Of a DNA stretch of 64,000 nucleotides, positions 6,038-64,000 are shown piece after piece. The stretch is taken from the NCBI GenBank assembly GCA_000004985.1, contig GG738862.1. One strand, given 5' to 3'. Positions within the stretch are counted from its first letter, which is position 1, and each line of letters starts with the position of its first letter. The stretch is from Naegleria gruberi (lineage: Eukaryota). The notes below the pieces were generated by a model. The model was not told the DNA's origin, ran no database searches, and saw only the letters and a list, made by a program, of their open reading frames with translations. A program made the position numbers and the translations under genes.

Positions 6038-6039
6038 GT

Positions 6040-11986: not shown

Positions 11987-12235
11987 TCAATGAGTCTAAT
12001 ACCTCTATAAAATGGTGAATAATTCCCTTTCACCAAATAACAACTTTTTTCTAAAATCCAAACCTGTTCCATTTTAAGAACATTAAGGCTCTTCGCATCT
12101 CATCACATGCTTTAAGTTGGATGCACAATCTATTTTAAAAAACTAAAGCAACGTTGCCTCCATAACAATAGCCATATCAACAGGTGAAAATCGTCTTCCA
12201 CAAACAACACAAGCCACTAGAAATATATTCTCCAA

Positions 12236-27592: not shown

Positions 27593-27681
27593 TTTTCAAC
27601 TATTTTGGCGCAAGCATCTGTGCTTTTCTCTCTAAATTGGACCCAGATTTTGGACTGGAATGCAATATTGTGAACTAGACT

Positions 27682-27775
27682 GATGATATTTCTTGAGGAA
27701 GCTTGAGAAACTTCAGACAATGGATCAATCCAGGCTCTTCCCTTACTGCAAGACAAAATGTCAGTGGCGAGTCTC
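27682..27775 (-). pseudogene. about 94-bp fragment of the rpl19 coding sequence (codons about 10-42), isolated in the intergenic region
   Basis: Direct comparison with 19669..19768: gat-g-atatttcttgaggaagcttgagaaacttcagacaa[6-bp deletion]tggatcaatccag-ctcttcccttac-gcaagacaaaatgtcag-ggcgagtctc. About 90% identity. The flanking sequence is unrelated. Confidence 0.6.
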
Positions 27776-46522: not shown

Positions 46523-46667
46523 TTCTTGACAATCTTCTATCCAATAAATACATTTCTCGTATTGATTAATCTTGTTTTATTCTCAATACTATTTAACAGA
46601 GGTTCTTTCGTGTTGTCACAATTTTTTCTGAGGAAACCTTTTCAGATGTTTCATTTCAAGGTCGAAA

Positions 46668-47591: not shown

Positions 47592-47783
47592 GGGATTTCA
47601 TCAAAAGGAAAAGATTTCACTTTAACAAAATCAAATATAATCAAAAGAAAAGTTAAAAATATTAAATATTTAAAGTGTGGAACATTACTGATACAAACCT
47701 TATCTAATGAATGGATATTTAAAACTAACAATGATTTAAAAACGGTATTTCCATTTTTTAAATCAAAAAAGGACTTCTCTGAT

Positions 47784-48197
47784 TTGGAGGTGCACAACAT
47801 TTTGGGTCTGATTGCCAAATCAAGAAAAAGAAGAACACTACTAGATAACTTATTACCATCATGTATAGAAATAGTTGGAGATAGTGTAAATTCTATTTGT
47901 TTTCTATTACAAGATTATACACTTTATATATCAAATGAAGTTAATCAAAAACATAAGAAAATTTATTCTGTAAATTTCTTAAAATTAAATTTAATAGATA
48001 TTGGAATTCCATTAAAAGAATTAAGTTCAACCTCATTCCAAGATAGAAATTTAATTATTAAAAATAGAGATGGAAACATATTGTTTGGAATTGAAAAAAT
48101 ACCTAAATTAACACATTCCTTAATTTCACATTGCAAATTATTATTTGAAAAATTGAAATTGAATATTTTAACTGATATTGACATTATTTTATGTTAA
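47784..48197 (+). CDS. hypothetical protein (at least 137 aa; the frame is open further upstream and the true 5' end is undetermined)
   Basis: ORF. The track start is TTG. Identical at the amino-acid level to the copy at 62330..62833. Confidence 0.35.
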   Translation: MEVHNILGLIAKSRKRRTLLDNLLPSCIEIVGDSVNSICFLLQDYTLYISNEVNQKHKKIYSVNFLKLNLIDIGIPLKELSSTSFQDRNLIIKNRDGNILFGIEKIPKLTHSLISHCKLLFEKLKLNILTDIDIILC

Positions 48198-48367
48198 TCA
48201 ATTTTTGATTTGTTGATAGAGGGAAGAGACAGGAAAATACAGCACGCATGGTACCTTCGCTGTAAATCACACAAAAAATTATTTAATTTAAATAATCTTT
48301 TAATTTAAACTATTGAAAGGAAAAGAAAATAAAGGAATTAAATAATTAAATTAAAGATATTACAAAC

Positions 48368-50302
48368 ATGATGCGCTTGCAAAAGTTAAAAAAAATGGGA
48401 AAACGAAAACATTCAAAAATTTCAAAGGAAAAGAAAAATATTCATCAAAGGGAGGAAAAGTCTGCACCAGGAGTTGTTATGACTAATTTGCCAGATGGAG
48501 CATCATTACAAATTTCTACAAAAAAGAAAAAGATGTCTCATGCTTCTTCTACTACTCCGAAGAATGATCAAATTGGATTGGAAATGATTGAAAAATGGCA
48601 GCAAATTTTGAGTTTGCAAGATACACTCACCCTGATTCTGGGTTACATTCCCGAATATTTATTGGAGAGAACAATGAGATTTGTTAATAGGGATTTTTAT
48701 CTTGCATCCTCTGTTGCTTGGAGAGAGAATATTCGAAGTTTGAAAATTCATGCATCATCACTCAAGGAAATAGAGATTGGTATTAAAAGATGGGAAAAAC
48801 TCAAGAATTTGAAAGATGTAAAGATTTCGTTTACTGATTTTGATATATGCTATGAGTTTGATGTTTGTTGCTTGAGTCATTTGGGATTTGAAAAAATTGG
48901 AGTTGTTAATACCACATCAATATTTTCCAAATCTCTTGTTGACACTAAATGGGTTGAAACTTTGAGATATTTACAAATTGATATTCATCAACAATATTTT
49001 ACTGCCTTGTTTGACTTGAATTTACACACTTTGGTTGTACAATTTCTTGAATTGGATGATAGTGAATTAATTATTGGAAAGGATGATAAGCCTTTATTTA
49101 AAAGTTTAACCCATCTCGATTACTCGAGTATAGCATTCAATAACATGGATGAATTTTTGAATAGACTTGTTAACCTTAAAAAATTGAGAAATGGTGATGA
49201 TGACATGAGTATTGAGAATATCAAATTACCTAATTTGAAACACTATAATTGTATGCATGAATTAATGGGGATAGAAGAGGTATTTCCAAAGTTAGAATCT
49301 CTAAAATCATATTCTAGTTTTTCAACAGCTAACGTGACAGGAGCAATCTCCCTAAAAACTTTAAAATCGGTAACCCTTAGTTTAGAATCAAAAACGATTA
49401 GCTCTATTCCAGATGCACTGTTTAATTTACCACTCCTTGAAAAGTTGTCATTGCTTGTCTACTGCTCCAGTCTAACAAAATGTTCAAAAATTAACCCAAA
49501 ACCATTGGATAATTTGAAAAAGGTAAAGCTTGTATTTTTTGAATACGAGAACGGTGAGCTTCCAATATCATTCTTTCATTTCAGAAAATGTAGCAATATT
49601 GAAAAAATTAGATTTGAAGAGGAAAGTCAAAAGGTATTAGTGGATATGAATGATTTTTCAAATTTTCCATTATTGAAAAGTCTAGCAGTAACAGCTGGAT
49701 CTGCTTCTAACTGGAATAGTCCTATTTGCACTCTGGAATCATTGGCAATTAATGTAAAAAAACAATGCTCAGTTACACTCACAGGACTAGACAAACTGAA
49801 GCGTTTGGAATATGTATCACAAAATATGAATAGTCTGGTTCAATATCTAAATGATAACTCCAATGATTGTATTAGAGATTTGAATATTTCTGGAAAGGAT
49901 ATTTCAAAGTTCACATCATTTCCCTGTTATTTGGAAACCCTCACCATTACAAACATGTATCTAAAAGAAATTAATGAGAGATTTGTGAACATTGTCAATA
50001 ACCAAACCAACCTTAGAAAACTAGTCATTGAGGAATCCAAATTCGACCTGGTTCCACTCTCGGAATCGCTCACTTGTCTCATCCATCAAATTAGCAAAAT
50101 ACAATTGAGTGGTGAATGCTATCCTATACCATACTCTGAATCCAAATATATTACCAATTTAATCAAAGTCCTATCAATATATGACTCCAAGAAAATAGAT
50201 CTCAAACTCAGTGGTTTTAATTATACATTCTCAAATCAATCAACTGGATATCTCATCTCTCAAATCAATTCCCGTTTTACAACAATTTCATTTACCTCAT
50301 GA
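48368..50302 (+). CDS. F-box-like/LRR-like repeat protein (644 aa)
   Basis: N-terminal basic region, then the F-box-like block IEKWQQILSLQDTLTLILGYIPEYLLERTMRFVNRDFYLASSVAWREN. The rest is leucine-rich repeats. ATG at 48368. Confidence 0.5.
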   Translation: MMRLQKLKKMGKRKHSKISKEKKNIHQREEKSAPGVVMTNLPDGASLQISTKKKKMSHASSTTPKNDQIGLEMIEKWQQILSLQDTLTLILGYIPEYLLERTMRFVNRDFYLASSVAWRENIRSLKIHASSLKEIEIGIKRWEKLKNLKDVKISFTDFDICYEFDVCCLSHLGFEKIGVVNTTSIFSKSLVDTKWVETLRYLQIDIHQQYFTALFDLNLHTLVVQFLELDDSELIIGKDDKPLFKSLTHLDYSSIAFNNMDEFLNRLVNLKKLRNGDDDMSIENIKLPNLKHYNCMHELMGIEEVFPKLESLKSYSSFSTANVTGAISLKTLKSVTLSLESKTISSIPDALFNLPLLEKLSLLVYCSSLTKCSKINPKPLDNLKKVKLVFFEYENGELPISFFHFRKCSNIEKIRFEEESQKVLVDMNDFSNFPLLKSLAVTAGSASNWNSPICTLESLAINVKKQCSVTLTGLDKLKRLEYVSQNMNSLVQYLNDNSNDCIRDLNISGKDISKFTSFPCYLETLTITNMYLKEINERFVNIVNNQTNLRKLVIEESKFDLVPLSESLTCLIHQISKIQLSGECYPIPYSESKYITNLIKVLSIYDSKKIDLKLSGFNYTFSNQSTGYLISQINSRFTTISFTS

Positions 50303-50555: not shown

Positions 50556-52240
50556 TCAATTGTCTGGAGTGTAATCTTTAAATTCCCTCTTCACATGATC
50601 CAAAACTTCATTGACATTGACAATCAATTTGAGATCATCACACATAATTGGAATGTATCGAATTCCCAACGATCTTGATCCACACCAAAAATCTCCAGGC
50701 CAACCATAGATCCACCCAATTTCCATGATAAACTTAATTTTTTCTCGGTTGACTGCATTCATGTTAGCGAGCCCAGCACCATGAGGAGCAATGATAGCAA
50801 GTGCTCCATAGAATGCAACACCAATGTCAATAAATGATTCTAGTTTTCCTAATTTGACAGGAATATATCAATATTTAAAGGCGTTGTAAACTCTTTCAAG
50901 CTGTTGATCATTTCGTCTTGATTAGTAATCATTCTATTACCAATATCTGATCGATCCACAACCAGAATATATTCTCTAGGATTTTGTTGAATTGGATTTG
51001 GTAACTTTTTAAAAAATTTCGAATAAATTGTCGAAACTATTCTCATTACAATATCAGGTGTTAAAGCAGCGTAATCATCCTTCGAATGTAAGAAATAAAC
51101 TCTCTTTCCAATATAATAATGACCCACTCTAGCCCAAATTATCTTTCTCTTTGGATGTATAATTCCCAGCTCTTTAAAAGATTCAATAATTCGTCTATTC
51201 TTTCCAATATCATTCATCAGAATAGGAATATGGAGAGGTAAGAAATAACTCATAAAAACTATTCTCGGTAAAACTTCAATTGGAAAATGACCAGCAGCTG
51301 TTGGATTATACGAAACTCCAACCATTGCAAACATTGGTTCAAACTTAACTGAAGCTTGATAATCAAACTTGAGCGAATGTGGAGTTGACATGATTAGGAT
51401 ATTACCATTCTTATCAAATAAACTTCCTGTAACGTGTCTATTAGAAACTCCAAAATCATAAATTCCATCCTCAATTGACAAAATTCCGAAATTTAAATTT
51501 GGTTTGAAACACCAAGGTCTTGAAAAGAAGACTTTGCTTTCGTTTTTCTTTATGGTGGATTCCTCACAAATAGAACATAAATGGTTCTGACAATTGTTGG
51601 GACAATACTTTCGTCTGGATTCCTCTGAAACTATTGGATACGAAACGAAATCGTCTCTAAATTCAACATTGTGTGCAAAGACCATATGTACCAATAGAGT
51701 TGGTAATTTCTTACTAATTTCATATCGTTTTGTTGTTGGATTAAATATTATCGAATAGATAGTTTCGTCCTCATGAAAATCATGTTTAAACTTTCCATTC
51801 GATTGACTTGTATCCAAAGCACTCGTTAATTGTGAGAAGAATATCCTTTTCAAATGACTATTTGATGGTTTTGACAAGAACTCAAAGGAAAGAAGTGTGA
51901 ATTCGTTGTCATCTGTTGACCAAATTTCTATTAAACTTTTTCCTCTATTTTCATCACAATTACTTTCAATGAGTGATTTTAATGATGGATAATGATGTAA
52001 TTCATCTGAATTTAGAATACCCTGACTGTAGTATTCGTATTCGTGAGGTAGGAGAGGAAGCTTTTCATCCTTGTGTAAATGATATGTGTAATCGTGCCAC
52101 ATGTCAAAGTTTGTTGAACATGTTAATTGTTGTGTGGGAAGATGAAGAGAAGTCCGTATTGAATATCTATAGGCAACCAGAATGAAGCTTGCCAGGATTA
52201 AAAGACATCCCATGAAAAGATATTTCGAATGAGGTTTCAT
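50556..52240 (-). CDS. second GT61-family glycosyltransferase (type II membrane), reading frame broken by a 1-nt shift near 50852..50875 (pseudogene or sequencing error)
   Basis: The 472-aa frame ends ...SLKEFTTPLNIDIFLSN-TAG. The +1 frame continues YIPVKLGKLESFIDIGVAFYGALAIIAPHGAGLANMNAVNREK..., which carries the family HGAGL motif. No GT-AG intron restores the frame. N-terminal TM YLFMGCLLILASFILVAY. The first ATG is at 52240. Confidence 0.5.
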
Positions 52241-53156
52241 ATTGTTTTTTGTTATCTTGTGCGACAACTCTTTTGACAGTCCCTCAATCGCATAATTTAC
52301 AGATTTTTTCCTTTATTTTACCACTGGTACTCTTTTTATGGATGAGGCATCATAAGTAGCATAATTTCCAAATCACTTCATTTTAGGAGTGATTTAATTT
52401 TTTATTAATTTTTTAACAAAATAATAAAAAAATATTTTATCCATTCTCTTTGAACAACACCACACCATCAGCATTGCAAAGAAAGCACTTTTCATCAAAG
52501 GAATTAATGATTATTATTGATCAAATCGTGTGCTTCCCTTGTTGTTTGCAAACCTCCTCTAGGATGCTTCATCAGTATTATTATGAAAATTAGTAGTACA
52601 TTCAAAGGAAACAAAAAGATTTTCAACCTCCAACACCAATAGGAGCAATTATTCTGATGCTCTACCTTGTATGTTGTAACCCTGAAAGAAAAAGCTCGTG
52701 AACGTGTTACCTTCTTCAAACAATAATATTATGCCAAGTTATAAGCTGGAGATGCTCTGTTACACATATCCGAAGCTGCAAGGAACCTCTGTTGAAGACA
52801 AAATTGTTAACGTGAATAGAAATTAGAACATTACAGATTCACAATAAGATTGAAGTAATGTTCTCACCACACCAGACTCTATCCCAGATTTCTCCTCACC
52901 AATGCAAGTACAATCCCAAGATGATAACAGCATCTTTGATGAAGAATTCTGGATACAAGGTTATTAAAAGCATGCTCCTAACCAAGAAAAAGAAGGTTTG
53001 AATGATGTGGTACTCTTTCATGGGTTTTTAGAAAAGTGAGAATACTTTTCGAATATTATGTTGAAGACTTCTGCAGTTGCTGGCATTCTTTTTTTTGGTG
53101 ACTTGACATGATTGTCAAATTTCGGTGCCACAAACGAGAATTGACAAGTTAAAAAA

Positions 53157-54332
53157 ATGGGCAAACATAATAAGAAAAAGAACAATCAAGCAAAACAACA
53201 ACACCAACAACAAGAACCACCAAACAAGAAAAACAAGACCGAACCATCTTCCCAACCAATTTATGATCTGAGTAGCTCTGCAAGTGATGCAAACTCATCC
53301 GACACAACAGTCGTTTCTCCAGTTTCAATTAATTCTCCTTCCATTGGTCCTTTAAATGTTGTTTCCAATGATCAGCAAAAGAATTTTTATGAAGATATGG
53401 CTAAGACAGCATCCTCTTTAGAAAAAATGATGACTTTATTTGGTTCTTATAACCAGAAATTGGAACAATCCTCAAAGATTGTTAATGCATCTTCCATTAA
53501 TTTGGAAAAATCTGCAAAGGAATTGGAAAAATTGTGTCAAATCAAAGCAGAAAATGAAAAATTGAAGAAAGAGGCAGCTACTCACATGAAAGAAATACAA
53601 GATAATGAAACCAAGTTAAAGAGATTGAACCAAGCCGAACAAAAGAATGTTGCGTTGGAAAAAGAAAACTCCACTTTGAAGGAACAAGCGAAATCTGTTA
53701 TGGAAAAAGTAAACCAAATCCAAACAGAAAACGAGAAGTTAACACAAGAAAACAAGAGGATTTTAGAAAATGAAATTCAATGTTTGGAATCTATTAGAAG
53801 TAAGGATATGGAAATTCTTTCATTGAAGAATAGAAAGGATTTTCAAGTATCAGATTCCAAGACAGAGGAGTTAGTTTCAGAGATGAGTCGTCTTACAGAT
53901 AATGCTAATAATTTGGTGTTTGATCTCATAGTTAATCTCAATGAAGATGATGAAACCTCTAAGTGGGTAGAAATGGTTCTTTCAACAGTGATCAACAAAA
54001 GCAGTCAACTATCAGAAGAGGAATTGAGTGAAGCTATTCTTGCCAAAAGTTATACAAAAGCATGGCAAGAATTCGCAAGTGCTCTTAACAACAACCCACA
54101 TCTGCAAGCTAAGATGAAGAATGATGCACCATTCCAATCAATCTTCCAACAACTCGTCAAGTCAAGTTGCAGGATTGTTGACATTTGCGAGAAATCAACT
54201 GTCCCAAAATTCAAACGTGACTGGTCATCATCATCTGACAAAGTCTGCATTGTGCCAGCAGTTGTAATTGACACGGACAACAAACGTGTTGTTGTGGTTG
54301 ATGGTCGTCACGTTGAAAAGTCGTCAAAATAA
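53157..54332 (+). CDS. coiled-coil protein, paralog 1 of a 4-member local family
   Basis: Gln/Lys/Glu-rich coiled coil. The C-terminal block ...SSDKVCIVPAVVIDTDNKRVVVVDGRHV is shared with paralogs 2-4. Confidence 0.5.
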   Translation: MGKHNKKKNNQAKQQHQQQEPPNKKNKTEPSSQPIYDLSSSASDANSSDTTVVSPVSINSPSIGPLNVVSNDQQKNFYEDMAKTASSLEKMMTLFGSYNQKLEQSSKIVNASSINLEKSAKELEKLCQIKAENEKLKKEAATHMKEIQDNETKLKRLNQAEQKNVALEKENSTLKEQAKSVMEKVNQIQTENEKLTQENKRILENEIQCLESIRSKDMEILSLKNRKDFQVSDSKTEELVSEMSRLTDNANNLVFDLIVNLNEDDETSKWVEMVLSTVINKSSQLSEEELSEAILAKSYTKAWQEFASALNNNPHLQAKMKNDAPFQSIFQQLVKSSCRIVDICEKSTVPKFKRDWSSSSDKVCIVPAVVIDTDNKRVVVVDGRHVEKSSK

Positions 54333-54353
54333 ACAAAAATTCACGAATTAAAA

Positions 54354-55895
54354 ATGTCTTTAACTGATGATGCTCTTTGTCAGAAATACTTTGGATCAAA
54401 ATTTGGTTTTTGTTCTCCATTTTACTTTGTTGTTCAAAACATTACGAATACAGTTCAAAAGTATAGCAAATCATCGATCTCTAGTACAATTAAAGATGAT
54501 GTACATGTTTCCAATTACTTAATTCTTGCTGACATATTGAAAGAGAATGGAAAACAAAACTGTTGTTTTCATGATGAAGCTTTCGAGCTATTTAAGAGCA
54601 ACATCTCCAGATTCATTGATCCTGATTCACCAAAGGAGCAATTAAATTCAATCAGCAAAAAGTATTTTGATTGTGAGTACAAAAAGTTGATGGACAACAT
54701 TACAGAAATGCTGAGCAGAAGTATTCCTCTAACTTCTTTTTCCAAAAATCAGCAAGTCCTTTCGAATTATCCCACTTTGGCAGATAAGATTGCAGAGGAT
54801 AAAAGCCAGACTGCTCACACTGTTTTCAAATTCTTACAATGTAATACTAATTTCTTTGAAGCCGTAGAGGACAATTCAGGAAAAACTCAAACAAGTGTTG
54901 GCTCTCAGGTCAATAATTCAACTTCTTCCCGTTCAACCATTGCTAGCTCTGCAACTAGCACTCCAAAAACCAATGCTAATACAACCAGAACTCCAACCTA
55001 CAGTAATAGTAACTACTCTGCTTTTAACTCAAATCAACCAAGTACCAATAATGATCCGAAGCCTGTTTCAATTGATGATTTTAGAAAAGTTATTAGTGAG
55101 GAGGTAAAGACCAGTATGGAACAAATCTTTGAGAGGTTCAAGAACTTCAGCTCCAATAACAATATTAATGCTGAGAATGAAGAGCTCAAGAAAAAACTTA
55201 CTGCAGAGGAGGAGAAGAATGGGGCACTGTCCTTAGAAATTGCAAATTTGAAACAACAAATGACAAAACTCAAAGAAGAAAATGCTATTCAATTACAAAT
55301 TAATGCAGATCAAAATCAAAAAATCTCAAATCTCTCATTGCTCGTTGAACAAAAGGAGAATTCTCAAAGACTCTTAGATTTAGGCGTGGTTTCTAATACC
55401 AAAACAGATCAGATTATTGATATGGCTAAGAGGGGGCTTTCAGAAATTAATGACAAAATTATCAATACTGTACTTGGTGCAGGTATTGAAGATTCCCAAG
55501 GAATTCTATTGGAAAAGTTTATGAAGATCTCTTTCTCACATGCTTTTTATTGTGCTTTCGATTCATTTGAGTCTGTTGTTGATTGTGCTTTCAGAAAGCT
55601 AATTACCTACATGAGTGAATCATTGCCTGGTTTAAAAACAGAGCAAACAGAAACAATTTTTACGGAATTCAAGGTTTCTCTTCAAAGTATGTTCTCTCTT
55701 ATCCATCAAATACCAAAGAATCTCAATATTAGATTTGATTTTTCAAGTGATATCAGAACTATGCATGTGGAAGAGATGACACAAGGAACTGGACAACCTG
55801 TAGCTACCGAATATTATTGCTTATTCCCTTCTCTTTATCATGGAGAGAGTTTGATAGAAAAAGGTTACGTTTTAAAGCTCACCAAGTATCAATAA
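54354..55895 (+). CDS. coiled-coil protein, paralog 2
   Basis: C-terminal ...VATEYYCLFPSLYHGESLIEKGYVLKLTKYQ matches the paralog 4 sequence EFFCLFPTLYFGENVHVKGRVLEVKYLH. Confidence 0.5.
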   Translation: MSLTDDALCQKYFGSKFGFCSPFYFVVQNITNTVQKYSKSSISSTIKDDVHVSNYLILADILKENGKQNCCFHDEAFELFKSNISRFIDPDSPKEQLNSISKKYFDCEYKKLMDNITEMLSRSIPLTSFSKNQQVLSNYPTLADKIAEDKSQTAHTVFKFLQCNTNFFEAVEDNSGKTQTSVGSQVNNSTSSRSTIASSATSTPKTNANTTRTPTYSNSNYSAFNSNQPSTNNDPKPVSIDDFRKVISEEVKTSMEQIFERFKNFSSNNNINAENEELKKKLTAEEEKNGALSLEIANLKQQMTKLKEENAIQLQINADQNQKISNLSLLVEQKENSQRLLDLGVVSNTKTDQIIDMAKRGLSEINDKIINTVLGAGIEDSQGILLEKFMKISFSHAFYCAFDSFESVVDCAFRKLITYMSESLPGLKTEQTETIFTEFKVSLQSMFSLIHQIPKNLNIRFDFSSDIRTMHVEEMTQGTGQPVATEYYCLFPSLYHGESLIEKGYVLKLTKYQ

Positions 55896-55935
55896 TAGAA
55901 TGATGTAAACTAATTGTATTATTACATTACCCAAT

Positions 55936-57198
55936 TTATTTTTTCATTCTCTTGATTCTCTTGAATGCTGTTCCAATCAGCTCAGCCTTCTTATTTTCTC
56001 CAAGAACTAAAGCAGGAAGCACTGAAACAATCTCCTCTTCAGGTTGACTGGAATTCTCTTCTGAGATCTCTTTAACATCAACATAATCTACATAACCGAT
56101 AAGTTTGAAGCTTTTGGAGGAATAGATTTCACCATCAATTCCAATCCAAAGAAGAGAAATCTTTGGGAATCGCAATGATTGTGTTGCTTGTTCCAAATCT
56201 TTGGCCATTGAAACAATTTCAGAAAAGATGGATTCTCCAGTGAGGAGCATGTTCTTGCATTCATCGTTTTCTGCAGAGTTTAGGAATTTGTTCCAAGAGA
56301 TTTCAAACAGTTCCTTCTTTTCAATAGTTGGATTTTCAAATAAGCATTGGAAAATTGTATTGGAAAGGTAGTAAAGATACTTTTCATAGATTTCAGGAAG
56401 TCCAGTTTCCATTATGAAATCAAAACATTTTGAATCAATATTGGTTATCAATTTTGTACATTTCTCTACAACTTCTTGAGCTTGACTGTTGATGACCTCA
56501 CCAGAGTTGAGAAGTTCCATTGATCTTTGTAATGTTTGGAGATTGAGAATAGCTGCTTCTTTCTCTTTTATCAATTCTTGAATTCTTTCATCTTTTTCTT
56601 TGATTTCAATCTCAGCTTTCATTCTTGATTGATTCTCTTGGTTTAGTTCTCTTCTCACCTTCTCTAATTCTGTATGAGTTTGAGCTAGCTCTTTTGTTAG
56701 TGTGCTGAATCTGATTTCTAACGACTCGTTTTCATTCTTTTGCTGCTTCAATTCATCAACCAATTTTGACATAAAATTGTCAATCAAATTTACCTTTTCA
56801 ACAAGGCCATCAGAAGAGCTAACTTTGATATTTAGTTTCTCAATAATTTTATCAACTGCCTTTGTGATATTCTCATTGTCTAATGTAACACTTTTAAACT
56901 TCTCTTTAATTTCATTGGTAATAGTGATGGAGCCAGATCCTTGATAGGAAATCCTTACGAAAGGTTCACTGTTGGTTGTTGATTTCTCAAGCAGATCACT
57001 AGTTTCCTTTAGAATATCTAATAGTGTATCTCTCTTTACAATCGAATAACCTTCATTTAGAACAATGGATGAAAAATAAGTTTGTTTATCTGGAACTAGA
57101 TATTGTACATTGCAAAGAAGTTGCAACTCTTGCTTTATTTCTTCCTCTGGAGTAATATTTTTCTTGGCAGTATCAGAGGTAGTAGCTTTCTGTCCCAT
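55936..57198 (-). CDS. coiled-coil protein, paralog 3
   Basis: C-terminal ...LRFPKISLLWIGIDGEIYSSKSFKLIGYVDYVDV is a related block. The central coiled coil is ELAQTHTELEKVRRELNQENQSRMKAEIEIKEKDERIQELIKEKE. Confidence 0.5.
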   Translation of the reverse strand: MGQKATTSDTAKKNITPEEEIKQELQLLCNVQYLVPDKQTYFSSIVLNEGYSIVKRDTLLDILKETSDLLEKSTTNSEPFVRISYQGSGSITITNEIKEKFKSVTLDNENITKAVDKIIEKLNIKVSSSDGLVEKVNLIDNFMSKLVDELKQQKNENESLEIRFSTLTKELAQTHTELEKVRRELNQENQSRMKAEIEIKEKDERIQELIKEKEAAILNLQTLQRSMELLNSGEVINSQAQEVVEKCTKLITNIDSKCFDFIMETGLPEIYEKYLYYLSNTIFQCLFENPTIEKKELFEISWNKFLNSAENDECKNMLLTGESIFSEIVSMAKDLEQATQSLRFPKISLLWIGIDGEIYSSKSFKLIGYVDYVDVKEISEENSSQPEEEIVSVLPALVLGENKKAELIGTAFKRIKRMKK

Positions 57199-57293
57199 TT
57201 TTTATTGCTTGGGAATTGTCAAATACGTCAAATGTCTAAGAGTCATATTTTGCATGTCATCACGTTACAACTATTAATTCACCTTTCAAAAAA

Positions 57294-59683
57294 ATGTACA
57301 TTGCTGATACACTCCACAAGTCCATCGTAGCATTCACCAAATCAACCCATGACAACGTTCAACCAGCACACTTGGAAGAACTCTTAAATTCTCTCCATTC
57401 AAACTTGGTTCAATTGACCAATTCTGAAGGAATGACAAGTTTGATCATTAGAGAATTTGCTCTACATGTCATTCTTCAATGGTTTTCAAAAGGAGAAGAT
57501 TTGGAAAATTTGCTCTCTGGAAATTGTAAATTTCAAGTTCTTTACATTTTGAAAAGCTTTTTGAAAGTCTCAGATCCAAATAATGTTGTTTGTAGCAGTG
57601 TTATTGTCTTGTTGCATTTGAAAAGAAGTTTTATGGAAAGATCTAAATTTAAATCGATTTTGGAAGAACCAGAGAGTTTGTCTAAACTTTTAGACTTGAA
57701 GAAACAATTCGAATCAATGATTGAAGAGCCGCTTCAGGTAAGTTTCATGTAGAAGGTTAAATTCATTAATTCAATAATTAGGGAAGTGGAAACTTTGATT
57801 TATTGATCAACATGTTGAAAAAATCCAAAGATTCAACAGAGAGAGAATTAATTATTGATATAATTACATCTCTTCCATCAAAAGTTCTTAAAATGATTTC
57901 GAATAGAAGCATGTCATATATTATTGAATTGGCCAAATCAATGGAAATTGAAAAGTCAGACGAAAATGATATTCATTGGGCTGATAAGATTACAACTCCA
58001 ATTTCTGTGAATCGAGCAGGGACAGAGCAAAAGAAGTGTATTCAATGTCTATGTGAAAAATTAGACGAAAAAGTTAGTCAATTACTTGCTGATTTCTCAT
58101 ATTGGGTTATTGAAACTAAAGGTGTATTTAGAGATTCCATTAGTGTTTTCATTGAATGCTTCGAAAGATATGGAATTGACAATGACAAGTTGTCACAAGA
58201 ACAGCAAGCAACAAATTTAGTAAGATTACTCTCCCGTATGAAATTCTTATCAGAATCAGGGTTCACATTGCCCAAATCGTTAGGTGAATTCATCAATAGA
58301 AGAAAAAATATAGTCATGTTTATTAAGAGCAACGATGAAATGAGAGTTTATTTTATTGAACATTTTGGTGAAAAGTATTTGACAATAGGTCAAGAAAATC
58401 AAATCAATACTCCTAAAACAGATCAAGAGCTTTTCAAATATGTTAAACCAACAATCAATTCATCCTCTATATCAATGCTCATCTCCCAGAATTTGGATTT
58501 TGAAACTCAACAAAAAGCTCAGCAATTCGAAACAACCCTGCAAGACATTAGACAAGATTCAGATAGTGATGTAATCATGCACGATGAATTCAATCTTCCA
58601 ATTGTTTGTAGCTCTTCAGACATAATGCCAAGTAGTAATACTCACCCACCTGCTACACACCAAACAGTCAACTTGTTAACAAATGGTTTATTGAATGAAA
58701 ATGGTTACAATACAAGATTAGAAAAACAGGAACCTCAAGTAATTCAACCTTTGAAAGTTCAATCATTCAGAAAATCTTGTGAAATTGAATCTTTTCCTTT
58801 TCAGGGTGACTTTACATTTGTTCAAGAAATTACCAGTTCCTTATTTAGTAACGTTTCAGATGTTAAGATTTCATACAAGAACAAATACATTATTGTTAGC
58901 AATAGTAATAATGGCAAAAATCAATTGCTTTTCTTTGATTTAAATACCAAAGAGTTAAAGAAGAACATTTCCTTTTTCGACAACATTAATGGAATAGCTA
59001 TTGAGAGAAATTTTGATGGACGAAACGATGCCATCATCTTGTCCACTGAAGAAAAGGTCCTCAAGTTCGATATTTCCAAACTAGTTCTCAATGGCACCGA
59101 CAAGAACTATCTATGGAGCAAAAAGTTGGAAATCACCTCTCGTTTTGCAGTCAAGAACGCTAAACTAGCAGCACTAACAATTCTCCACTCACCACACACA
59201 GAGAAAAAAGTAGAAAATGTTGTTTTCGTTTGTGATACCTCTTTCAATTGTATTCATATTTTGAGAAGCTCTGATGGAAAGATTTTAAAGAGAATTGGTG
59301 GAATTAACTCTACTGATAAGATGTCAATGTTTCATCCTAATTGGATTGACATTGATAGAGAGAGCTCTGAATTGGTAATATCAGAAACTATGTCGAATAA
59401 TGTTAGAGTGTTATTGGAAAGTTCTGAAACTAAAACTATTGAGACAAGATGTTTGCCAACCAAATTTAAACAAGTTGGAGGTATTGTATATGACAATTAT
59501 ACAAAAAACATTATAGTTTCAGATGTGATTGAGAATAGTATTCAAATATTCAATGCTATTGGAAACAGGGTGAATATATTGGCAGGGCAGGTCCATCATC
59601 CAAAGAGTTTATGTATCAATGAAGAAACAGGTGAATTGTATGTAAACGATTCAGGAAACAAGAGAATTGTAATTTACAAATAA
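57294..59683 (+). CDS. hypothetical protein with a C-terminal NHL-like beta-propeller region; 2 exons with a 44-nt intron at 57738..57781
   Basis: The GTAAGT...ATTAG intron joins ...MIEEPLQ to GSGNFDLLINMLKK in frame. The C-terminus (NVVFVCDTSFNCIHILRSSDGKILKRIG, LCINEETGELYVNDSGNKRIVIYK) is NHL-repeat-like. Confidence 0.5.
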
Positions 59684-59700
59684 TTTGTTTCTAATAAAAC

Positions 59701-60789
59701 TTAGTGTAAATACTTTACTTCTAGAACTCTTCCTTTCACGTGTACATTCTCTCCAAAATAAAGGGTTGGAAATAAACAAAAGAATTCTACCTTTTCAATT
59801 TGTGTGCCAGAACCGATAGTTACAGAACCATCGATTAAATGATTGTGTTTAGTTGACTTTTCGAACCATTCTAGACGAATGTTATATCCAAGCTCGAGAT
59901 TGTGAATTCTCTCAATAATACCATTCATAAATACTCGAAGTTCATGTAAGTGTTTTTCTGGAACCATTTTGTGAATATTATTAGTATTGATCAATTGGAT
60001 TAACTTTTGTTCTGCAAAGGAGACTAAAGTTAACGAATCATTCTGAGCTTGTGAAAATGCAGAACATATTGACATACACAAACTCTTCTCAATAAGAGAA
60101 CAAGTTTCTTCGCTAATATTAGGAATTGATAATAAGTAATTTACAACATCATTCTGAATGTTACTGATCTCTCTCGATGCCCTATCTAGTATCAATTCCA
60201 CATTCGAATTTGAAACTAATCCTTTCGAAATTAGATTTTCAGATAATTCTTTTTGTTGCGTGAGTGAATCCAACCAAGCCAAAAGTTCCAATTCTTTTTT
60301 TCGTAATAGTTCAATTTCTTCATCTTTCTTCTTTATCATTTCTTCTTGTTGTTCCATTCGAATCTTGATAGATTTTACAAGACTATCAGCTGAGCACTGT
60401 TGCAATTGATCAGAATCCAAAGAGCTTGTTTCAATTATTGCTAACCCTTCCGAACACAATTGTTCATCCAACAAAATTAGAAATTTTAATTCTGAATTAT
60501 TTTCACTACTCTCGCAAAAACATGAAACATTTGCTGGAGTTTGGTTTCTTGTTTTTAGGTACTTGATGATTAGTTGAGTGTTGGGATTTTCCATCTCGTT
60601 TTGAAAAAGGCTCCAAGCTTTTGCCATCTGTTTCCACATTTTTTTAATAATAGATTTGACAAGTTGTTGCAATTCCCAACTGTCACTTATCATATGTCTT
60701 CTCCCAAGTCTCAAAAACAAACGTGATGTCAAAGTGTAAAACAAAGAAAAAAACAACTCAATGGTACACATAGCCCGTACTATTACCAT
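59701..60789 (-). CDS. coiled-coil protein, paralog 4. The true start may be a downstream Met, because the 5' end overlaps the divergent HSPA12-like gene.
   Basis: Shares the C-terminal domain with paralog 2. Coiled coil MEQQEEMIKKKDEEIELLRKKELELLAWLDS. Confidence 0.45.
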   Translation of the reverse strand: MVIVRAMCTIELFFSLFYTLTSRLFLRLGRRHMISDSWELQQLVKSIIKKMWKQMAKAWSLFQNEMENPNTQLIIKYLKTRNQTPANVSCFCESSENNSELKFLILLDEQLCSEGLAIIETSSLDSDQLQQCSADSLVKSIKIRMEQQEEMIKKKDEEIELLRKKELELLAWLDSLTQQKELSENLISKGLVSNSNVELILDRASREISNIQNDVVNYLLSIPNISEETCSLIEKSLCMSICSAFSQAQNDSLTLVSFAEQKLIQLINTNNIHKMVPEKHLHELRVFMNGIIERIHNLELGYNIRLEWFEKSTKHNHLIDGSVTIGSGTQIEKVEFFCLFPTLYFGENVHVKGRVLEVKYLH

Positions 60790-61258
60790 AGCTGTTGACT
60801 TTGGTACTTCTCGCTCTGGTTTCGCCTACATTAACCATGGTGAAGATGTGAAATCTGACATTAAAACCTACAAGAATTGGGACGGAGCAGCTGTTCCATA
60901 CGATAAGAATCTAACCCAGATATTATATAATCCAGATGGTGAACCAATTAGCTTTGGTTACAATGCCCCAAAGGAGTACAGCGAACTGATCTACCACCCT
61001 TCATGTGACATTTCTCAATATACCTTGTTCAAGTATTTCAAGATGCAATTACAAAAGAAAACTAATCCAGATGGTATTTTAAGAAATGAAGTAACTGGTA
61101 GGGAATTTGATCTTGTCGAAGTTATTGCTGATTACTTGGTTTATATTCGAAAGATTATTGAAAAAATTACAGGTATCGATTTGACTATTCACAAGGAGAA
61201 TGTTCGTTGGTGTTTTACAGTTCCAGCTATTGGGAAGATGAAGAGAAACAACAAACTA
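60761..61258 (+). CDS. HSPA12-like (atypical Hsp70-superfamily) ATPase, N-terminal 166 codons; truncated by the assembly gap
   Basis: TITIAVDFGTSRSGFAY...ISFGYNAP...ENVRWCFTVPAIGKM parallels the HSPA12 blocks VVAIDFGTTSSGYAYSF and VRWVITVPAIWK. Confidence 0.6.
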
Positions 61259-61308
61259 NNNNNNNNNNNNNNNNNNNNNNNNNNNNNNNNNNNNNNNNNN
61301 NNNNNNNN
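61259..61308. other. assembly gap (50 N)
   Basis: Run of n characters. Confidence 1.
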
Positions 61309-64000
61309 ATAAAAAGATGATATGAAACAAAATTAGCTGATTTGAAAAAGAAGCTAAAAGAACACGAAACAGGAATACAGGAACTAAAGGAACAACACAA
61401 AACACAATTAGAGGAGCAAATGGATCAATATGAAACACAATTAGAGGAGCAATTAAATCAATACCAAGAACAATTAGAAGAGGAAAGAGCTTACAAAACA
61501 AAATTAGAGGAGCAAATTGAAAGTATGGGCAAAAATATTCAATCATTGTCGTCTAAACTAGCTAATTATGAATTTGATAGTTTGGTAAAGCCAAACAAAA
61601 GATGTTCCTGTGATTGTTCAATATGTAAGGGATGTCAAAAACCTGTTTTTTAATTCTTGACAATCTTCTATCCAATAAATACATTTCTCGTATTGATTAA
61701 TCTTGTTTTATTCTCAATACTATTTAACAGAGGTTCTTTCGTGTTGTCACAATTTTTTCTGAGGAAACCTTTTCAGATGTTTCATTTCAAGGTCGAAATT
61801 GATTATTGGTCTTTGTTTTTTTCCAAAAAAATGTTCATTCCGATTCCTTCATGGAGTGATGATCATCACGTGGTGAATAATCCTCCGATAAATGATGATC
61901 AATCCAGTGATGATCATGAAACGTCTACAAACAATTTAAATCATGTAAAATTTCCATCATATGATTATAGTTACCTTATTGAAAAACAAAAATTGGAGAA
62001 TACATTTAATACTGCATTTATTGGTGGTAATGATCAAACAGAGTTTAAGAAGTATGATAAATGTATTAGTAATTTTAAATTGGATTCAGTGTCATCTCAC
62101 TATTGCGAGAATAGTAAACCATACATATCAAATAACAAATACTTGAATGAACTCTATCATATTTATATTAATGATGAAAAAAAAATTGAATTGAATAATA
62201 TTAATCATTTTTACAATAATACTTGGAAGAATGTTAATTTGGAAAATGGGTGTATTCATTCTATTGAAAATCATTTAAGATCAGTTACTGTTTATGGAAA
62301 AAATACTAATTTTTTTGTTTTAAATACATTTGATAGATTTAAGGAGATGGATATTTAAAACTAACAATGATTTAAAAACGGTATTTCCATTTTTTAAATC
62401 AAAAAAGGACTTCTCTGATTTGGAGGTGCACAACATTTTGGGTCTGATTGCCAAATCAAGAAAAAGAAGAACACTACTAGATAACTTATTACCATCATGT
62501 ATAGAAATAGTTGGAGATAGTGTAAATTCTATTTGTTTTCTATTACAAGATTATACACTTTATATATCAAATGAAGTTAATCAAAAGCATAAGAAAATTT
62601 ATTCTGTAAATTTCTTAAAATTAAATTTAATAGATATTGGAATTCCATTAAAAGAATTAAGTTCAACCTCATTCCAAGATAGAAATTTAATTATTAAAAA
62701 TAGAGATGGAAACATATTGTTTGGAATTGAAAAAATACCCAAATTAACACATTCCTTAATTTCACATTGCAAATTATTATTTGAAAAATTGAAATTGAAT
62801 ATTTTAACTGATATTGACATTATTTTATGTTAATTATTTTACAACTAACTAGAAATTTTTGATTTGTTGATAGAGGGAAGAGACAGGGAAAATACAGCAC
62901 GCATGGTACCTTCTGTAAATCACAACAATTAAAATACAAAAAATTGTGTAAATAATTATAATATTACAAACATGATGCGCTTGCAAAAGTTAAAAAAAAT
63001 GGGAAAACGAAAACATTCAAAAATTTCAAAGGAAAAGAAAAATATTCATCAAAGGGAGGAAAAGTCTGCACCAGGAGTTGTTATGACTAATTTGCCAGAT
63101 GGAGCATCATTACAAATTTCTACAAAAAAGAAAAAGATGTCTCATGCTTCTTCTACTACTCCGAAGAATGATCAAATTGGATTGGAAATGATTGAAAAAT
63201 GGCAGCAAATTTTGAGTTTGCAAGATACACTCACCCTGATTCTGGGTTACATTCCCGAATATTTATTGGAGAGAACAATGAGATTTGTTAATAGGGATTT
63301 TTATCTTGCATCCTCTGTTGCTTGGAGAGAGAATATTCGAAGTTTGAAAATTCATGCATCATCACTCAAGGAAATAGAGATTGGTATTAAAAGATGGGAA
63401 AAACTCAAGAATTTGAAAGATGTAAAGATTTCGTTTACTGATTTTGATATATGCTATGAGTTTGATGTTTGTTGCTTGAGTCATTTGGGATTTGAAAAAA
63501 TTGGAGTTGTTAATACCACATCAATATTTTCCAAATCTCTTGTTGACACTAAATGGGTTGAAACTTTGAGATATTTACAAATTGATATTCATCAACAATA
63601 TTTTACTGCCTTGTTTGACTTGAATTTACACACTTTGGTTGTACAATTTCTTGAATTGGATGATAGTGAATTAATTATTGGAAAGGATGATAAGCCTTTA
63701 TTTAAAAGTTTAACCCATCTCGATTACTCGAGTATAGCATTCAATAACATGGATGAATTTTTGAATAGACTTGTTAACCTTAAAAAATTGAGAAATGGTG
63801 ATGATGACATGAGTATTGAGAATATCAAATTACCTAATTTGAAACACTATAATTGTATGCATGAATTAATGGGGATAGAAGAGGTATTTCCAAAGTTAGA
63901 ATCTCTAAAATCATATTCTAGTTTTTCAACAGCTAACGTGACAGGAGCAATCTCCCTAAAAACTTTAAAATCGGTAACCCTTAGTTTAGAATCAAAAACG
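61309..64000 (+). repeat. second copy of the segment 46176..49396 (segmental duplication; extends beyond the window end)
   Basis: Direct comparison of the two intervals. 61342..61653 equals the C-terminus of the 235-aa coiled-coil ORF. 61657..62358 equals the 307-aa ORF, except for a 497-bp deletion (copy-1 47217..47713, ATG microhomology) and an E-to-G change. 62330..62833 and 62972..64000 are identical in amino-acid sequence to the 47784 and 48368 genes. The intergenic stretch between the two downstream genes is diverged. Confidence 0.85.

What the first reader, a model, noticed from the sequence alone, without database searches (positions are those of the whole stretch)
53157..60789. Tandem cluster of four paralogous coiled-coil genes sharing an unrecognised C-terminal domain, beside an HSPA12-like ATPase
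The four ORFs (53157, 54354, 55936 minus and 59701 minus) each combine a Q/E/K-rich coiled coil with a related C-terminal block. Examples are CLFPSLYHGESLIEKGYVLKL, CLFPTLYFGENVHVKGRVLEV, CIVPAVVIDTDNKRVVVVDGRHV and LLWIGIDGEIYSSKSFKLIGYVDYVDV. They sit in alternating orientation within 7.6 kb, interrupted only by an NHL-propeller gene. They end at a divergently overlapping HSPA12-like ATPase gene. I could not assign the shared domain to any family I know. It looks like a lineage-specific, locally expanding family, possibly functionally linked to the neighbouring atypical Hsp70-like ATPase.
Basis: seen in the sequence. Interest (0 to 1): 0.55.

Follow-up and report, generated by a model that had tools for sequence, protein, structure and literature searches.

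The report
Orphan coiled-coil family beside HSPA12-like ATPase
Four neighbouring Naegleria gruberi genes (plus a fifth hidden by an assembly gap) are real, old paralogues that share an undescribed C-terminal domain, and they stay next to an HSPA12-like ATPase gene in three amoeba species, which makes them candidate partners of a chaperone-like enzyme whose function is unknown.

Summary

An exhaustive HMM search of 1.84 billion proteins finds only Naegleria members. A context search adds Willaertia magna. A second Naegleria-like species keeps the whole block in the same order, followed by a full Hsp70-NBD+VWA gene and a fifth paralogue, E. In N. gruberi, E and the rest of the ATPase gene sit on a 2.8-kb scaffold that belongs in the gap at 61259-61308.

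The ATPase is HSPA12-like. The paralogues are old, not recently expanding.

A different or very distant coiled-coil family sits next to HSPA12-like genes in bacteria and uncultured protists. The likeliest reading, which is inferred, is non-enzymatic partner or adaptor proteins of the ATPase.

The parts
53157..54332 (+). Paralogue A (391 aa; EFC45598 / NAEGRDRAFT_79393, 'hypothetical protein'). It starts MGKHNKKK. The heptad-like region is about aa 70-215 and the C-terminal domain is aa 229-391 (nt 53841-54329).
   Evidence: orthologue in L001 at 59% identity
54354..55895 (+). Paralogue B (513 aa). The N-terminal 170 aa are conserved in the orthologue, followed by a low-complexity S/T/N linker. 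The heptad-like region is aa 241-313 and the C-terminal domain is aa 344-513 (nt 55383-55892). The public gene model P0001 (326 aa) lacks the end of the domain.
   Evidence: orthologue P0002 at 45% identity
55936..57198 (-). Paralogue C (420 aa; EFC45689 / NAEGRDRAFT_48352, 'predicted protein'). It starts MGQKATT. The heptad-like region lies within aa 86-261 and the C-terminal domain is aa 233-420 (nt 55939-56502). It has the longest insert between the beta-strands.
   Evidence: orthologue at 48% identity
57294..59683 (+). Intervening gene for a helical N-terminal region plus an NHL-type beta-propeller. It has two exons (57294-57737 and 57782-59683) joined across a 44-nt GT-AG intron. It is transcribed divergently from C, with 95 bp between them.
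   Evidence: NHL repeat; intron conserved in L001; orthologue 57% identical
59701..60627 (-). Paralogue D (308 aa from M55; the open frame runs on to 60789). The heptad-like region is aa 120-222 of the long ORF and the C-terminal domain is nt 59704-60222.
   Evidence: (D aligns to the 307-aa orthologue from residue 73 to residue 19)
60628..60760 (.). 133-bp divergent intergenic region between D and the ATPase gene. Blocks conserved with L001 are TTTTTAATAAT, CAATTCCCA..TGTCAC and AAACGTGAWGTCAMAGT. It is a probable bidirectional promoter. No heat-shock element was seen.
60761..61258 (+). N-terminal 165 codons of the HSPA12-like Hsp70-NBD+VWA ATPase gene, cut by the assembly gap. The remaining 518 aa (P0010, EFC35432) lie on a 2782-bp scaffold.
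   Evidence: 79% identity to residues 2-157 of the L001 protein
61259..61308 (.). Assembly gap (50 N). The 2782-bp scaffold that carries the rest of the ATPase gene and paralogue E (P0008, EFC35431 / NAEGRDRAFT_76913, 258 aa) most likely belongs here.

Best explanation
SHOWN.
- A, B, C and D are real genes. Together with a fifth copy (E) they form an old family of coiled-coil proteins, detectable by sequence only in Naegleria and Willaertia.
- Each protein ends in a previously undescribed domain of about 165-190 aa. The domain is modelled as a four-helix bundle capped by a small beta-sheet.
- The family's recurrent motifs are G-x-V-[ST]-[ND]-S at the coiled-coil/domain junction, [AS]-W-x-x-F in helix 3, P-K-[IF]-x-[LR]-x-W at the first strand, and [CS]-x-x-P-[AST]-[LV]-x-x-G-[ED]-[NS] near the C-terminus.
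- No column suggests a catalytic residue. The only invariant positions are one Val and one Pro, plus a nearly invariant Trp.
- The genes keep their position next to an HSPA12-like Hsp70-NBD+VWA ATPase gene in three species of two genera. D shares a short, partly conserved divergent promoter region with that gene.

INFERRED.
- The proteins are non-enzymatic and oligomerise through the coiled coil.
- They work with the ATPase as adaptors, client-recruiting subunits or regulators of its nucleotide cycle. The C-terminal domain would dock on the ATPase, either on the NBD or on the VWA metal site through the conserved acidic turn.
- Different paralogues would give different localisation. A and C begin with MG and could be N-myristoylated.
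- This would be a lineage-specific counterpart of the way canonical Hsp70s use dedicated co-factors.
For: Paralogy.

Fold: (pLDDT 82.5, pTM 0.77; helices 6-32, 37-56, 62-80 and 86-109, then five strands). An independent two-sequence model of A repeats the helix pattern but is weak.

No known relative.

Restricted distribution.

Conserved block A-B-C-NHL-D-ATPase-E in L001.

E and the ATPase C-terminus lie together on one N. gruberi scaffold.

Willaertia magna: two family members flank three HSPA12-like genes. They hit the Naegleria-only HMM at E 3e-10 and 3e-9 among 147 ORFs.

Conserved intergenic blocks.

Independent precedent that HSPA12-like ATPases have a dedicated coiled-coil partner:
- In Scytonema, Stigonema, Nostocales and a Beggiatoa-like genome, a coiled-coil protein gene starts between an overlap of a few bases and 13 nt after the Hsp70-like stop codon.
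- Four metagenome loci were retrieved through that partner's motif alone. One of them is the L006 contig again. All four carry an HSPA12-like gene next door.

A 2026 review states that HSPA12's function is unknown and mechanistically untested (PMC13580251).
Against: - There is no experimental or expression evidence. No paper mentions these genes.
- Gene neighbourhood is weak evidence of function in eukaryotes. The two Naegleria-type genomes may simply not have rearranged here.
- In the Naegleria block, only D and E directly abut the ATPase gene.
- The bacterial/protist partner family is not demonstrably homologous to this one. HMM scores lie inside the decoy range, and hhalign gives P 0.03-0.07 over the last 26-27 columns only.
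- The confident model rests on a 5-sequence alignment.
- The A-type model is poor in the beta part.
- The docking mode and the myristoylation are speculation.
Confidence: 0.5

Rival explanations
1. The family is a very divergent branch of a wider, ancient partner family ('X') of HSPA12-like ATPases found in bacteria and uncultured protists. It may also be related to the animal MIEAP/SPATA18 domain (PF16026). On this reading the domain is not new in kind, only unrecognisable by sequence.
For: - Same architecture: coiled coil, helical region, then a short C-terminal beta part.
- Same position beside orthologous-grade HSPA12-like genes (33% identity, E 1e-77).
- Similar terminal motif. The X family has P-G-[LY]..[DN]-R-V-x-x-K-A-x-V. 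Naegleria B and D have P-[ST]-L-x-x-G-E-[NS]-[VL]-x-x-K-G-x-V. Human MIEAP has [17 protein letters not shown].
- hhalign always aligns these equivalent ends. P is 0.016-0.07, against 0.38-0.76 for reversed controls.
- W. magna aligns co-linearly over 55 columns, P 0.025.
Against: - None of these values is significant.
- X HMMs score Naegleria and Willaertia members inside the decoy range, and the same holds in the other direction.
- Pfam MIEAP does not hit any member of either family, even at E up to 10.
- Smith-Waterman z-scores against the human MIEAP domain are at most 2.4.
- The motif regex was written after seeing the sequences.
Confidence: 0.3
2. These are ordinary structural coiled-coil proteins, such as cytoskeletal, tethering or scaffold proteins, with a lineage-specific targeting domain. 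They lie near the ATPase gene only by descent, with no functional tie.
For: - Lineage-specific coiled-coil families are common in protist genomes.
- Weak Pfam similarities are all to generic coiled-coil families.
- A, B and C are separated from the ATPase gene by the NHL gene.
- A whole syntenic block can persist without selection.
Against: - Adjacency survives in W. magna, although the locus is otherwise rearranged. There are three ATPase genes, members of the family on both flanks, no NHL-like stretch found by tblastn, and only 51% identity in the ATPase.
- D and the ATPase gene share a conserved 133-141 bp divergent region.
- An analogous pairing is operonic in bacteria.
Confidence: 0.2
3. 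The block is part of a conflict or innate-immunity-type island. The coiled-coil paralogues would be fast-evolving sensors or effectors that are assembled or triggered by the HSPA12-like/VWA NTPase, together with the NHL propeller.
For: - The paralogues diverge faster (45-59% identity) than the ATPase (79%).
- The neighbours are repeat or propeller proteins: NHL here, WD40 in two bacterial loci, and an F-box/DUF1963 pair in W. magna.
- Toxin-antitoxin genes sit beside the Beggiatoa-like locus.
- Hsp70-family and vWA components occur in bacterial NTP-dependent conflict systems (PMC7159879).
- HSPA12 genes are massively expanded in bivalves (PMC13580251).
Against: - No effector-type domain or catalytic motif is present.
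- PADLOC has no match for any component.
- The paralogues are stable 1:1 orthologues and do not turn over.
- The NHL protein (57%) diverges as fast as the paralogues, so the rate difference is not specific to them.
Confidence: 0.12
4. The shared C-terminal block is chance similarity between compositionally biased ORFs, or the ORFs are not genes.
For: A-C and A/C-B/D pairwise BLASTP values are marginal and dominated by coiled coil.
Against: - Full-length orthologues of all four exist in another species.
- B-D reaches E 3e-19.
- Leave-one-out HMM scores lie well above shuffled and reversed decoys.
- The structure model is confident.
Confidence: 0.02

Closest known systems
GrpE, the nucleotide-exchange factor of DnaK (PF01025)
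   Same: Overall build is alike: a long N-terminal paired helix or coiled coil, then a four-helix bundle, then a small C-terminal beta domain. GrpE is also encoded next to its Hsp70-family ATPase in many bacteria. This rests on established knowledge of GrpE; the neighbourhood precedent is cited in PMC7159879.
MIEAP / SPATA18 C-terminal domain (Pfam PF16026)
   Same: MIEAP has a coiled-coil N-terminal half followed by a C-terminal domain of about 195 aa. Its end (…PPLDIAYGADGEVF…[22 protein letters not shown]) resembles C (FPKISLLWIGIDGEIY…VSVLPALVLGENKK) and B/D (CLFP[ST]LY.GE..[VI].KG.VL). The human sequence used was recalled from memory and then validated against Pfam (E 3.5e-76).
   Different: The Pfam model does not match any member. 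hhalign gives P 0.19 and Smith-Waterman z is at most 2.4. MIEAP is not known to be linked to HSPA12. No MIEAP structure was available for comparison.
Unnamed coiled-coil partner family ('X') of HSPA12-like Hsp70s in cyanobacteria, a Beggiatoa-like bacterium and uncultured protists (loci L003, L006-L008, L011-L013, L017, L021, L023)
   Same: These proteins have a coiled coil plus a C-terminal helical and beta region, and no database annotation. Their genes lie immediately beside HSPA12-like genes, sometimes as tandem paralogues (L003, L021). The last strands are similar.
   Different: Homology is not demonstrable. HMM scores are at decoy level and hhalign gives P 0.03-0.07. X carries an [FY]-N-P-[ED]-K-H-[EQ] motif that the Naegleria family lacks. 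The Naegleria ATPase has an added VWA domain, as do two of the protist ones.
HSPA12A/B (atypical Hsp70s), as the family of the neighbouring ATPase
   Same: The neighbour has an Hsp70-type nucleotide-binding domain (Pfam HSP70 2e-11). Its best named homologues are HSPA12A/B-like, at 25-31% identity over 72% of the protein with E 1e-73 to 1e-62. Similarity to DnaK is confined to the NBD.
   Different: It carries a C-terminal VWA domain. It is closer still to cyanobacterial 'Hsp70 family proteins' (E about 1e-85). The copy in the window is only the first 165 codons.

Membership tests
The Naegleria/Willaertia coiled-coil family itself (A, B, C, D as one family) | C-terminal domains related beyond chance once the coiled coil is excluded | tested here: met
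   B-D E 3e-19. Leave-one-subfamily-out HMMs score 11.5-41.5 bits, against at most 11 bits for 2000 shuffles and below 5 bits for reversed sequences.
The Naegleria/Willaertia coiled-coil family itself (A, B, C, D as one family) | Same fold in different subfamilies | tested here: inconclusive
   The B model is confident: four helices plus five strands, pLDDT 82.5. The A model (pLDDT 62) repeats the helix pattern, but its last 38 residues are below pLDDT 50. The two models could not be superposed with the tools available.
MIEAP (PF16026) | Match to the Pfam model at or near the gathering score | tested here: not met
   No MIEAP hit for full-length proteins at E up to 0.1 or for nine isolated domains at E up to 10. 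The human sequence scores 256 bits against the same model.
MIEAP (PF16026) | Profile-to-sequence similarity to a validated MIEAP domain | tested here: not met
   hhalign P 0.19 over 22 columns. HMM scores are below decoys. Smith-Waterman z is at most 2.4.
MIEAP (PF16026) | Same three-dimensional fold | not testable with these tools
GrpE (PF01025) | Sequence or structural match to GrpE | tested here: not met
Bacterial/protist HSPA12-partner family X | Match to an HMM of the X C-terminal region | tested here: not met
   The X HMMs score all 12 Naegleria/Willaertia domains at 5 bits or less, with decoys reaching 12.7 bits. The 66-residue X-beta HMM finds no window, L001 or L002 ORF at E below 1.
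Bacterial/protist HSPA12-partner family X | Profile-profile similarity | tested here: inconclusive
   hhalign P is 0.033, 0.068 and 0.025 (the last for W. magna). The equivalent C-terminal strands are always the part aligned. Reversed controls give 0.38-0.44.
Bacterial/protist HSPA12-partner family X | Gene adjacent to an HSPA12-like ATPase gene | tested here: met
   Window and L001 and W. magna. For X itself.
HSPA12-like ATPases (neighbouring gene) | Hsp70-type NBD that is closer to HSPA12 than to canonical Hsp70/DnaK | tested here: met
   Shown on the 79%-identical full-length orthologue. Pfam HSP70 2e-11. HSPA12A/B-like hits at 1e-73 to 1e-62. DnaK at 3e-8, NBD only.
HSPA12-like ATPases (neighbouring gene) | ATP binding and hydrolysis | not testable with these tools
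   Needs biochemistry. The catalytic motifs were not inspected in detail.

The most novel reading that the evidence does not exclude
The Naegleria paralogues may be the expanded eukaryotic branch of an ancient two-gene module: an HSPA12-like ATPase plus a coiled-coil partner with a helical-bundle/beta C-terminal domain.

In cyanobacteria and a Beggiatoa-like bacterium the partner gene starts directly after the ATPase gene, a layout suggestive of translational coupling. The module persists beside HSPA12-like genes in several protists. Animal MIEAP could be a descendant.

That would give HSPA12-type ATPases, whose function is unknown, their first dedicated co-factor or client family.
Probability: 0.25. 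Interest if true: 0.8.

Novelty: new variant of a known kind. Interest (0 to 1): 0.57.

Why it matters
HSPA12-type Hsp70 relatives occur from bacteria to humans and are hugely expanded in bivalves. A 2026 review still calls their function unknown and their mechanism untested (PMC13580251). No co-factor turned up in the literature searches run here.

A protein family that stays next to the HSPA12-like gene across amoeba genera would supply concrete candidate partners. So would a similarly built family that directly follows the gene in bacteria. These candidates could be tested by pull-down, ATPase assay or co-folding.

The work also has practical results:
- It repairs the local annotation: the truncated model of B, the two-exon NHL gene and the start of D.
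- It places an orphan 2.8-kb scaffold in an assembly gap.

Tried and rejected
- **Family libraries.** Pfam, NCBIfam and PADLOC scans of all members found nothing specific. They returned only generic coiled-coil noise.
- **PDB by sequence profile.** Nothing with E below 0.7.
- **Foldseek against PDB and BFVD.** No hit with E at or below 0.001. The AFDB library was unavailable.
- **Word-index search with the 9-sequence alignment.** It returned only P0001 and missed known members, so it was uninformative.
- **P0007 from the exhaustive search.** This is a bacterial HAMP-repeat protein matched through 12 repeats. It was rejected as spurious.
- **Extra copies in the window.** A tblastn hit of C to 33611-34060 (E 0.007) comes from coiled coil. 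The family HMM finds nothing there.
- **MIEAP lead from memory.** The recalled human sequence was validated, but no significant link was found.
- **Linking family X to the Naegleria family.** HMMs, short beta-region HMMs and profile-profile comparison all fell short of significance.
- **Degenerate-pattern scans.** The single-protein scan gave only two close relatives.
- **Heat-shock elements.** None lies in the D/ATPase intergenic region.
- **Literature.** Searches for the gene identifiers, and for HSPA12 together with Naegleria, cyanobacteria or coiled-coil, found nothing relevant.
- **The 644-aa ORF.** It has no tblastn match in L001 at E 1e-3.
- **Short contigs.** Acrasis (L004) and L005 hold only HSPA12-like genes, so they are uninformative about neighbours.

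Full report
**Source and anatomy**

The window is Naegleria gruberi. ORF B is 99% identical to a 'predicted protein [Naegleria gruberi]'. A, C and the later-found E map to GenBank proteins EFC45598, EFC45689 and EFC35431, all unnamed. G+C is even at about 33% across the window, so there is no sign of foreign DNA.

The four ORFs are:

| ORF | Coordinates | Strand | Length |
|---|---|---|---|
| A | 53157-54332 | + | 391 aa |
| B | 54354-55895 | + | 513 aa |
| C | 55936-57198 | - | 420 aa |
| D | 59701-60789 | - | open frame of 362 aa |

**Is the shared block real?**

- B and D align over their last 188 residues at 31% identity, E 3e-19.
- A and C give only marginal pairwise values, driven by coiled coil.
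- I therefore cut each protein at a motif that follows the coiled coil (G-x-V-[ST]-[ND]-S) and worked with the C-terminal 157-188 residues only.
- I added the orthologues from a second species (see below). The nine domains then align co-linearly, with shared motifs along the whole length.
- In a leave-one-subfamily-out test, HMMs built without the A/E, B/D or C subfamily still score the omitted members at 11.5-41.5 bits. The best of 2000 composition-matched shuffles reaches 9-11 bits, and reversed sequences stay below 5 bits.
- hhalign on two- to four-sequence profiles agrees: B~D 99%, A~E 98.6%, C~B/D P 7.7e-5 and A/E~B/D P 3e-4.

A crude heptad score finds proline-free, E/K/Q/R/L/N-rich, heptad-like stretches directly upstream of each domain.

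**Fold**

AlphaFold2 on B's domain with a five-sequence alignment gives mean pLDDT 82.5 and pTM 0.77. The model has four helices (6-32, 37-56, 62-80, 86-109) followed by five short strands, with a disordered insert between the first strand and the rest.

An independent run on A with only an E-type sequence is weaker (pLDDT 62). It shows helices at matching positions and hints of two strands.

No specific relative was found by structure:
- Foldseek against PDB and viral models returns nothing with E at or below 0.001.

No specific relative was found by sequence either. Pfam, NCBIfam, PADLOC and a PDB sequence-profile search are all empty.

The alignment has no conserved polar residues of the kind expected for an enzyme.

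**Distribution**

An exhaustive HMMER search of 1.84 billion representative proteins returned eight proteins:
- six are the N. gruberi proteins and their orthologues from one Logan assembly;
- one is a further N. gruberi protein of the A/E type (P0008);
- one is a spurious HAMP-repeat protein.

By sequence, then, the family is confined to Naegleria-type amoebae. No N. fowleri or N. lovaniensis protein appeared in any search. This is weak negative evidence, because I could not check that those proteomes are in the collections.

**Synteny**

The orthologue of B lies on a 33-kb contig (run ERR1598038; locus L001). Its first 12.7 kb carry the genes in this order:
- A' (+)
- B' (+)
- C' (-)
- a small ORF plus an NHL-propeller ORF (+)
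- D' (-)
- an 814-aa Hsp70-NBD+VWA protein (+)
- a fifth paralogue, E' (+)

Identity between the two species, by gene:

| Gene | Identity |
|---|---|
| A | 59% |
| B | 45% |
| C | 48% |
| D | 58% |
| E | 57% |
| NHL protein | 57% |
| ATPase | 79% |

The paralogues are therefore old 1:1 orthologues and not a recent local expansion.

**What the assembly gap hides**

In N. gruberi the ATPase ORF stops at an assembly gap (N run 61259-61308). Its C-terminal 518 residues (P0010) and the E paralogue (P0008) are neighbouring genes on a 2782-bp scaffold. That scaffold evidently belongs in the gap. About 108 residues of the ATPase remain unaccounted for.

**Gene-model corrections**

- D' is 307 aa and aligns from D residue 73 to its own residue 19. 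D therefore most likely starts at M55 (nt 60627). The 'divergent overlap' becomes a 133-bp divergent intergenic region, against 141 bp in L001. Three blocks are conserved between the species and there is no heat-shock element.
- The public model of B lacks the end of the domain because of a predicted intron.
- The 152-aa ORF and the NHL ORF are two exons of one gene. The 44/45-nt GT-AG intron is conserved in both species.

**The neighbouring ATPase**

The L001 protein matches Pfam HSP70 (2e-11) and VWA (5e-7). Its relatives rank as follows:
- W. magna (51% identity), Acrasis and metagenomic sequences are closest;
- about 575-aa cyanobacterial 'Hsp70 family proteins' follow, at about 1e-85;
- animal HSPA12A/B-like proteins follow, at 1e-73 to 1e-62;
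- canonical DnaK chains in the PDB reach only 3e-8, and only across the NBD.

'HSPA12-like' is a fair label, with an added VWA domain.

**Does the linkage extend further?**

In Willaertia magna (GCA_041937235.1, locus L002) the HSP70-VWA orthologue sits between two more HSPA12-like genes. The trio is flanked, though not directly on the left side, by coiled-coil genes of 313 and 327 aa. Their C-termini hit the Naegleria-only HMM at E 3e-9 and 3e-10 among 147 ORFs. These two genes are a recent inverted duplicate, 90% identical at protein level and 93% at DNA level. Adjacency is thus kept in a second genus, in a locus that is otherwise differently organised.

**A second partner family (X)**

I looked at the neighbours of more distant HSPA12-like genes.

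Uncultured-organism contigs (L003, L006, L008-L010) carry adjacent coiled-coil proteins. These end in ...[FY]NP[ED]KH[EQ]...RPGL..DNRV..KASVE.

The same C-terminal region follows the Hsp70-like gene directly in these bacteria:

| Source | Locus | Spacing from the Hsp70-like stop codon |
|---|---|---|
| Scytonema hofmannii | L007 | next base |
| Stigonema and a metagenome-assembled genome | L011, L012 | open frames overlap by 1-2 nt |
| Nostocales | L013-L016 | 12 nt |
| Beggiatoa-like genome | L017-L019 | 6 nt |

A reciprocal scan of JGI metagenomes used only the FNPEKHED-type motif. It returned four loci, one of which is the L006 contig again. All four have an HSPA12-like gene next door, and one has two tandem X genes. 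HSPA12-like ATPases therefore do have a recurrent coiled-coil neighbour across bacteria and protists.

**Is X the same family as the Naegleria one?**

This is not shown.
- HMM scores in both directions lie within the decoy range.
- hhalign aligns the equivalent last strands each time, but at P 0.016-0.07. Reversed controls give 0.38-0.76.
- A regex written after the fact picks only B/D-type, X-type and cyanobacterial partners among 176 ORFs. This is descriptive, not a test.

**MIEAP**

From memory, the end of the family resembles the MIEAP/SPATA18 domain. The human sequence I recalled is a valid MIEAP domain, with Pfam PF16026 E 3.5e-76. The link could not be demonstrated:
- there are no Pfam hits;
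- hhalign gives P 0.19 for the Naegleria family and 0.03-0.07 for X;
- Smith-Waterman z is at most 2.4.

It stays a lead for structural comparison.

**Mechanism**

Shown:
- a real, old paralogous family;
- a confident helical-bundle-plus-sheet model;
- no catalytic signature;
- conserved adjacency to an HSPA12-like/VWA gene in three species;
- a conserved divergent promoter region shared with D.

Inferred: coiled-coil oligomers whose C-terminal domain binds the ATPase and serves as adaptor, client-recruiting subunit or regulator of its nucleotide cycle. The build (coiled coil, four-helix bundle, small beta domain) recalls GrpE in form only.

A, C, their orthologues, one W. magna copy and one X protein begin with MG and have a small residue or lysine at position 6. 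This is compatible with N-myristoylation and membrane targeting, but it is untested.

I put about 0.9 on 'real family with an undescribed domain'. I put about 0.55 on a functional link with the ATPase, and about 0.3 on the specific co-factor or adaptor role.

**Novelty and interest**

No paper mentions these genes. No library holds the domain. A 2026 review calls HSPA12 function unknown. An orphan coiled-coil family on its own would be ordinary. The recurring partnership with HSPA12-like ATPases is what makes it worth following up.

Noticed in passing
window 61309-64000 versus 46179-49396: Everything after the assembly gap is a near-identical copy of sequence about 15.1 kb upstream. The matches are 99.4-99.8% over 1040 and 1048 bp and 95.5% over 594 bp, with an indel of about 485 bp near 47216-47702. 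The copied region includes the start of the 644-aa ORF at 48368. This is either a direct segmental repeat bracketing the cluster or a mis-scaffolded haplotig.
   Followed up: partly
window 54354-55895 (public model P0001): The deposited N. gruberi gene model for B is 326 aa. It starts at M119 and replaces the last 85 residues or so with an unrelated tail (…SLPGFSSKYVLSYPSNTKESQY), presumably from a falsely predicted intron. The uninterrupted ORF is supported by the 484-aa orthologue P0002.
   Followed up: yes
window 57294-59683: The 152-aa ORF and the NHL ORF are one gene. The 44-nt intron (57738-57781, GTAAGT…TTAG) and the flanking coding sequence (…EEPLQ | GSGNFDLLINML…) are conserved in L001, where the intron is 45 nt.
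   Followed up: yes
N-termini of A (53157), C (57198, minus strand), L001 A' and C', L002 14616, L008 35: Several members begin MG-x-x-x-[STAK] (MGKHNKK, MGQKATT, MGNRNKS, MGQKVSF, MGNSQAQ, MGNNKSS). This fits the N-myristoylation consensus, and in A a polybasic stretch follows. B, D and E do not begin this way.
   Followed up: no
L007 (Scytonema hofmannii PCC 7110) 1116-12689; L017 5001-8789: The bacterial HSPA12-like genes sit in larger same-strand gene runs. In Scytonema these hold a WD40 propeller, a double-AAA ATPase, zinc-ribbon/coiled-coil proteins and a second Hsp70-like gene. In the Beggiatoa-like locus the order is Hsp70-like, partner, WD40, beside toxin-antitoxin genes. A beta-propeller neighbour recurs, as with the NHL gene in Naegleria.
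   Followed up: partly
L002 (Willaertia magna) 1100-5467 and 8057-14321: The W. magna locus has three HSPA12-like genes (550, 786 and 563 aa). Beside them lies a divergent pair of F-box/DUF1963 genes that are 87% identical inverted duplicates.
   Followed up: no
window 50849-52267 (-): A 472-aa ORF upstream of A has a weak glycosyltransferase-61 match (Pfam E 2.1e-5, 25.2 bits, just under the 27-bit cut-off).
   Followed up: no
window 61342-61653 (+) and its copy near 46210-46520: A 103-aa Q/E-rich coiled-coil ORF ends in a Cys-rich tail (CSCDCSICKGCQKPVF). It is unrelated to the family (family HMM E 4.7).
   Followed up: no
window 19650-19751 / 27680-27775 and 46087-46203: There is a 102-bp dispersed repeat (90% identity) and a tandem duplication of about 64 bp (95%). 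Both are of unknown nature.
   Followed up: no
window 61230-61258: The last codons before the gap (…TVPAIGKMKRNNK) depart from the orthologue (…TVPAIWEDEEKQQ). This suggests poor sequence quality at the contig end.
   Followed up: no
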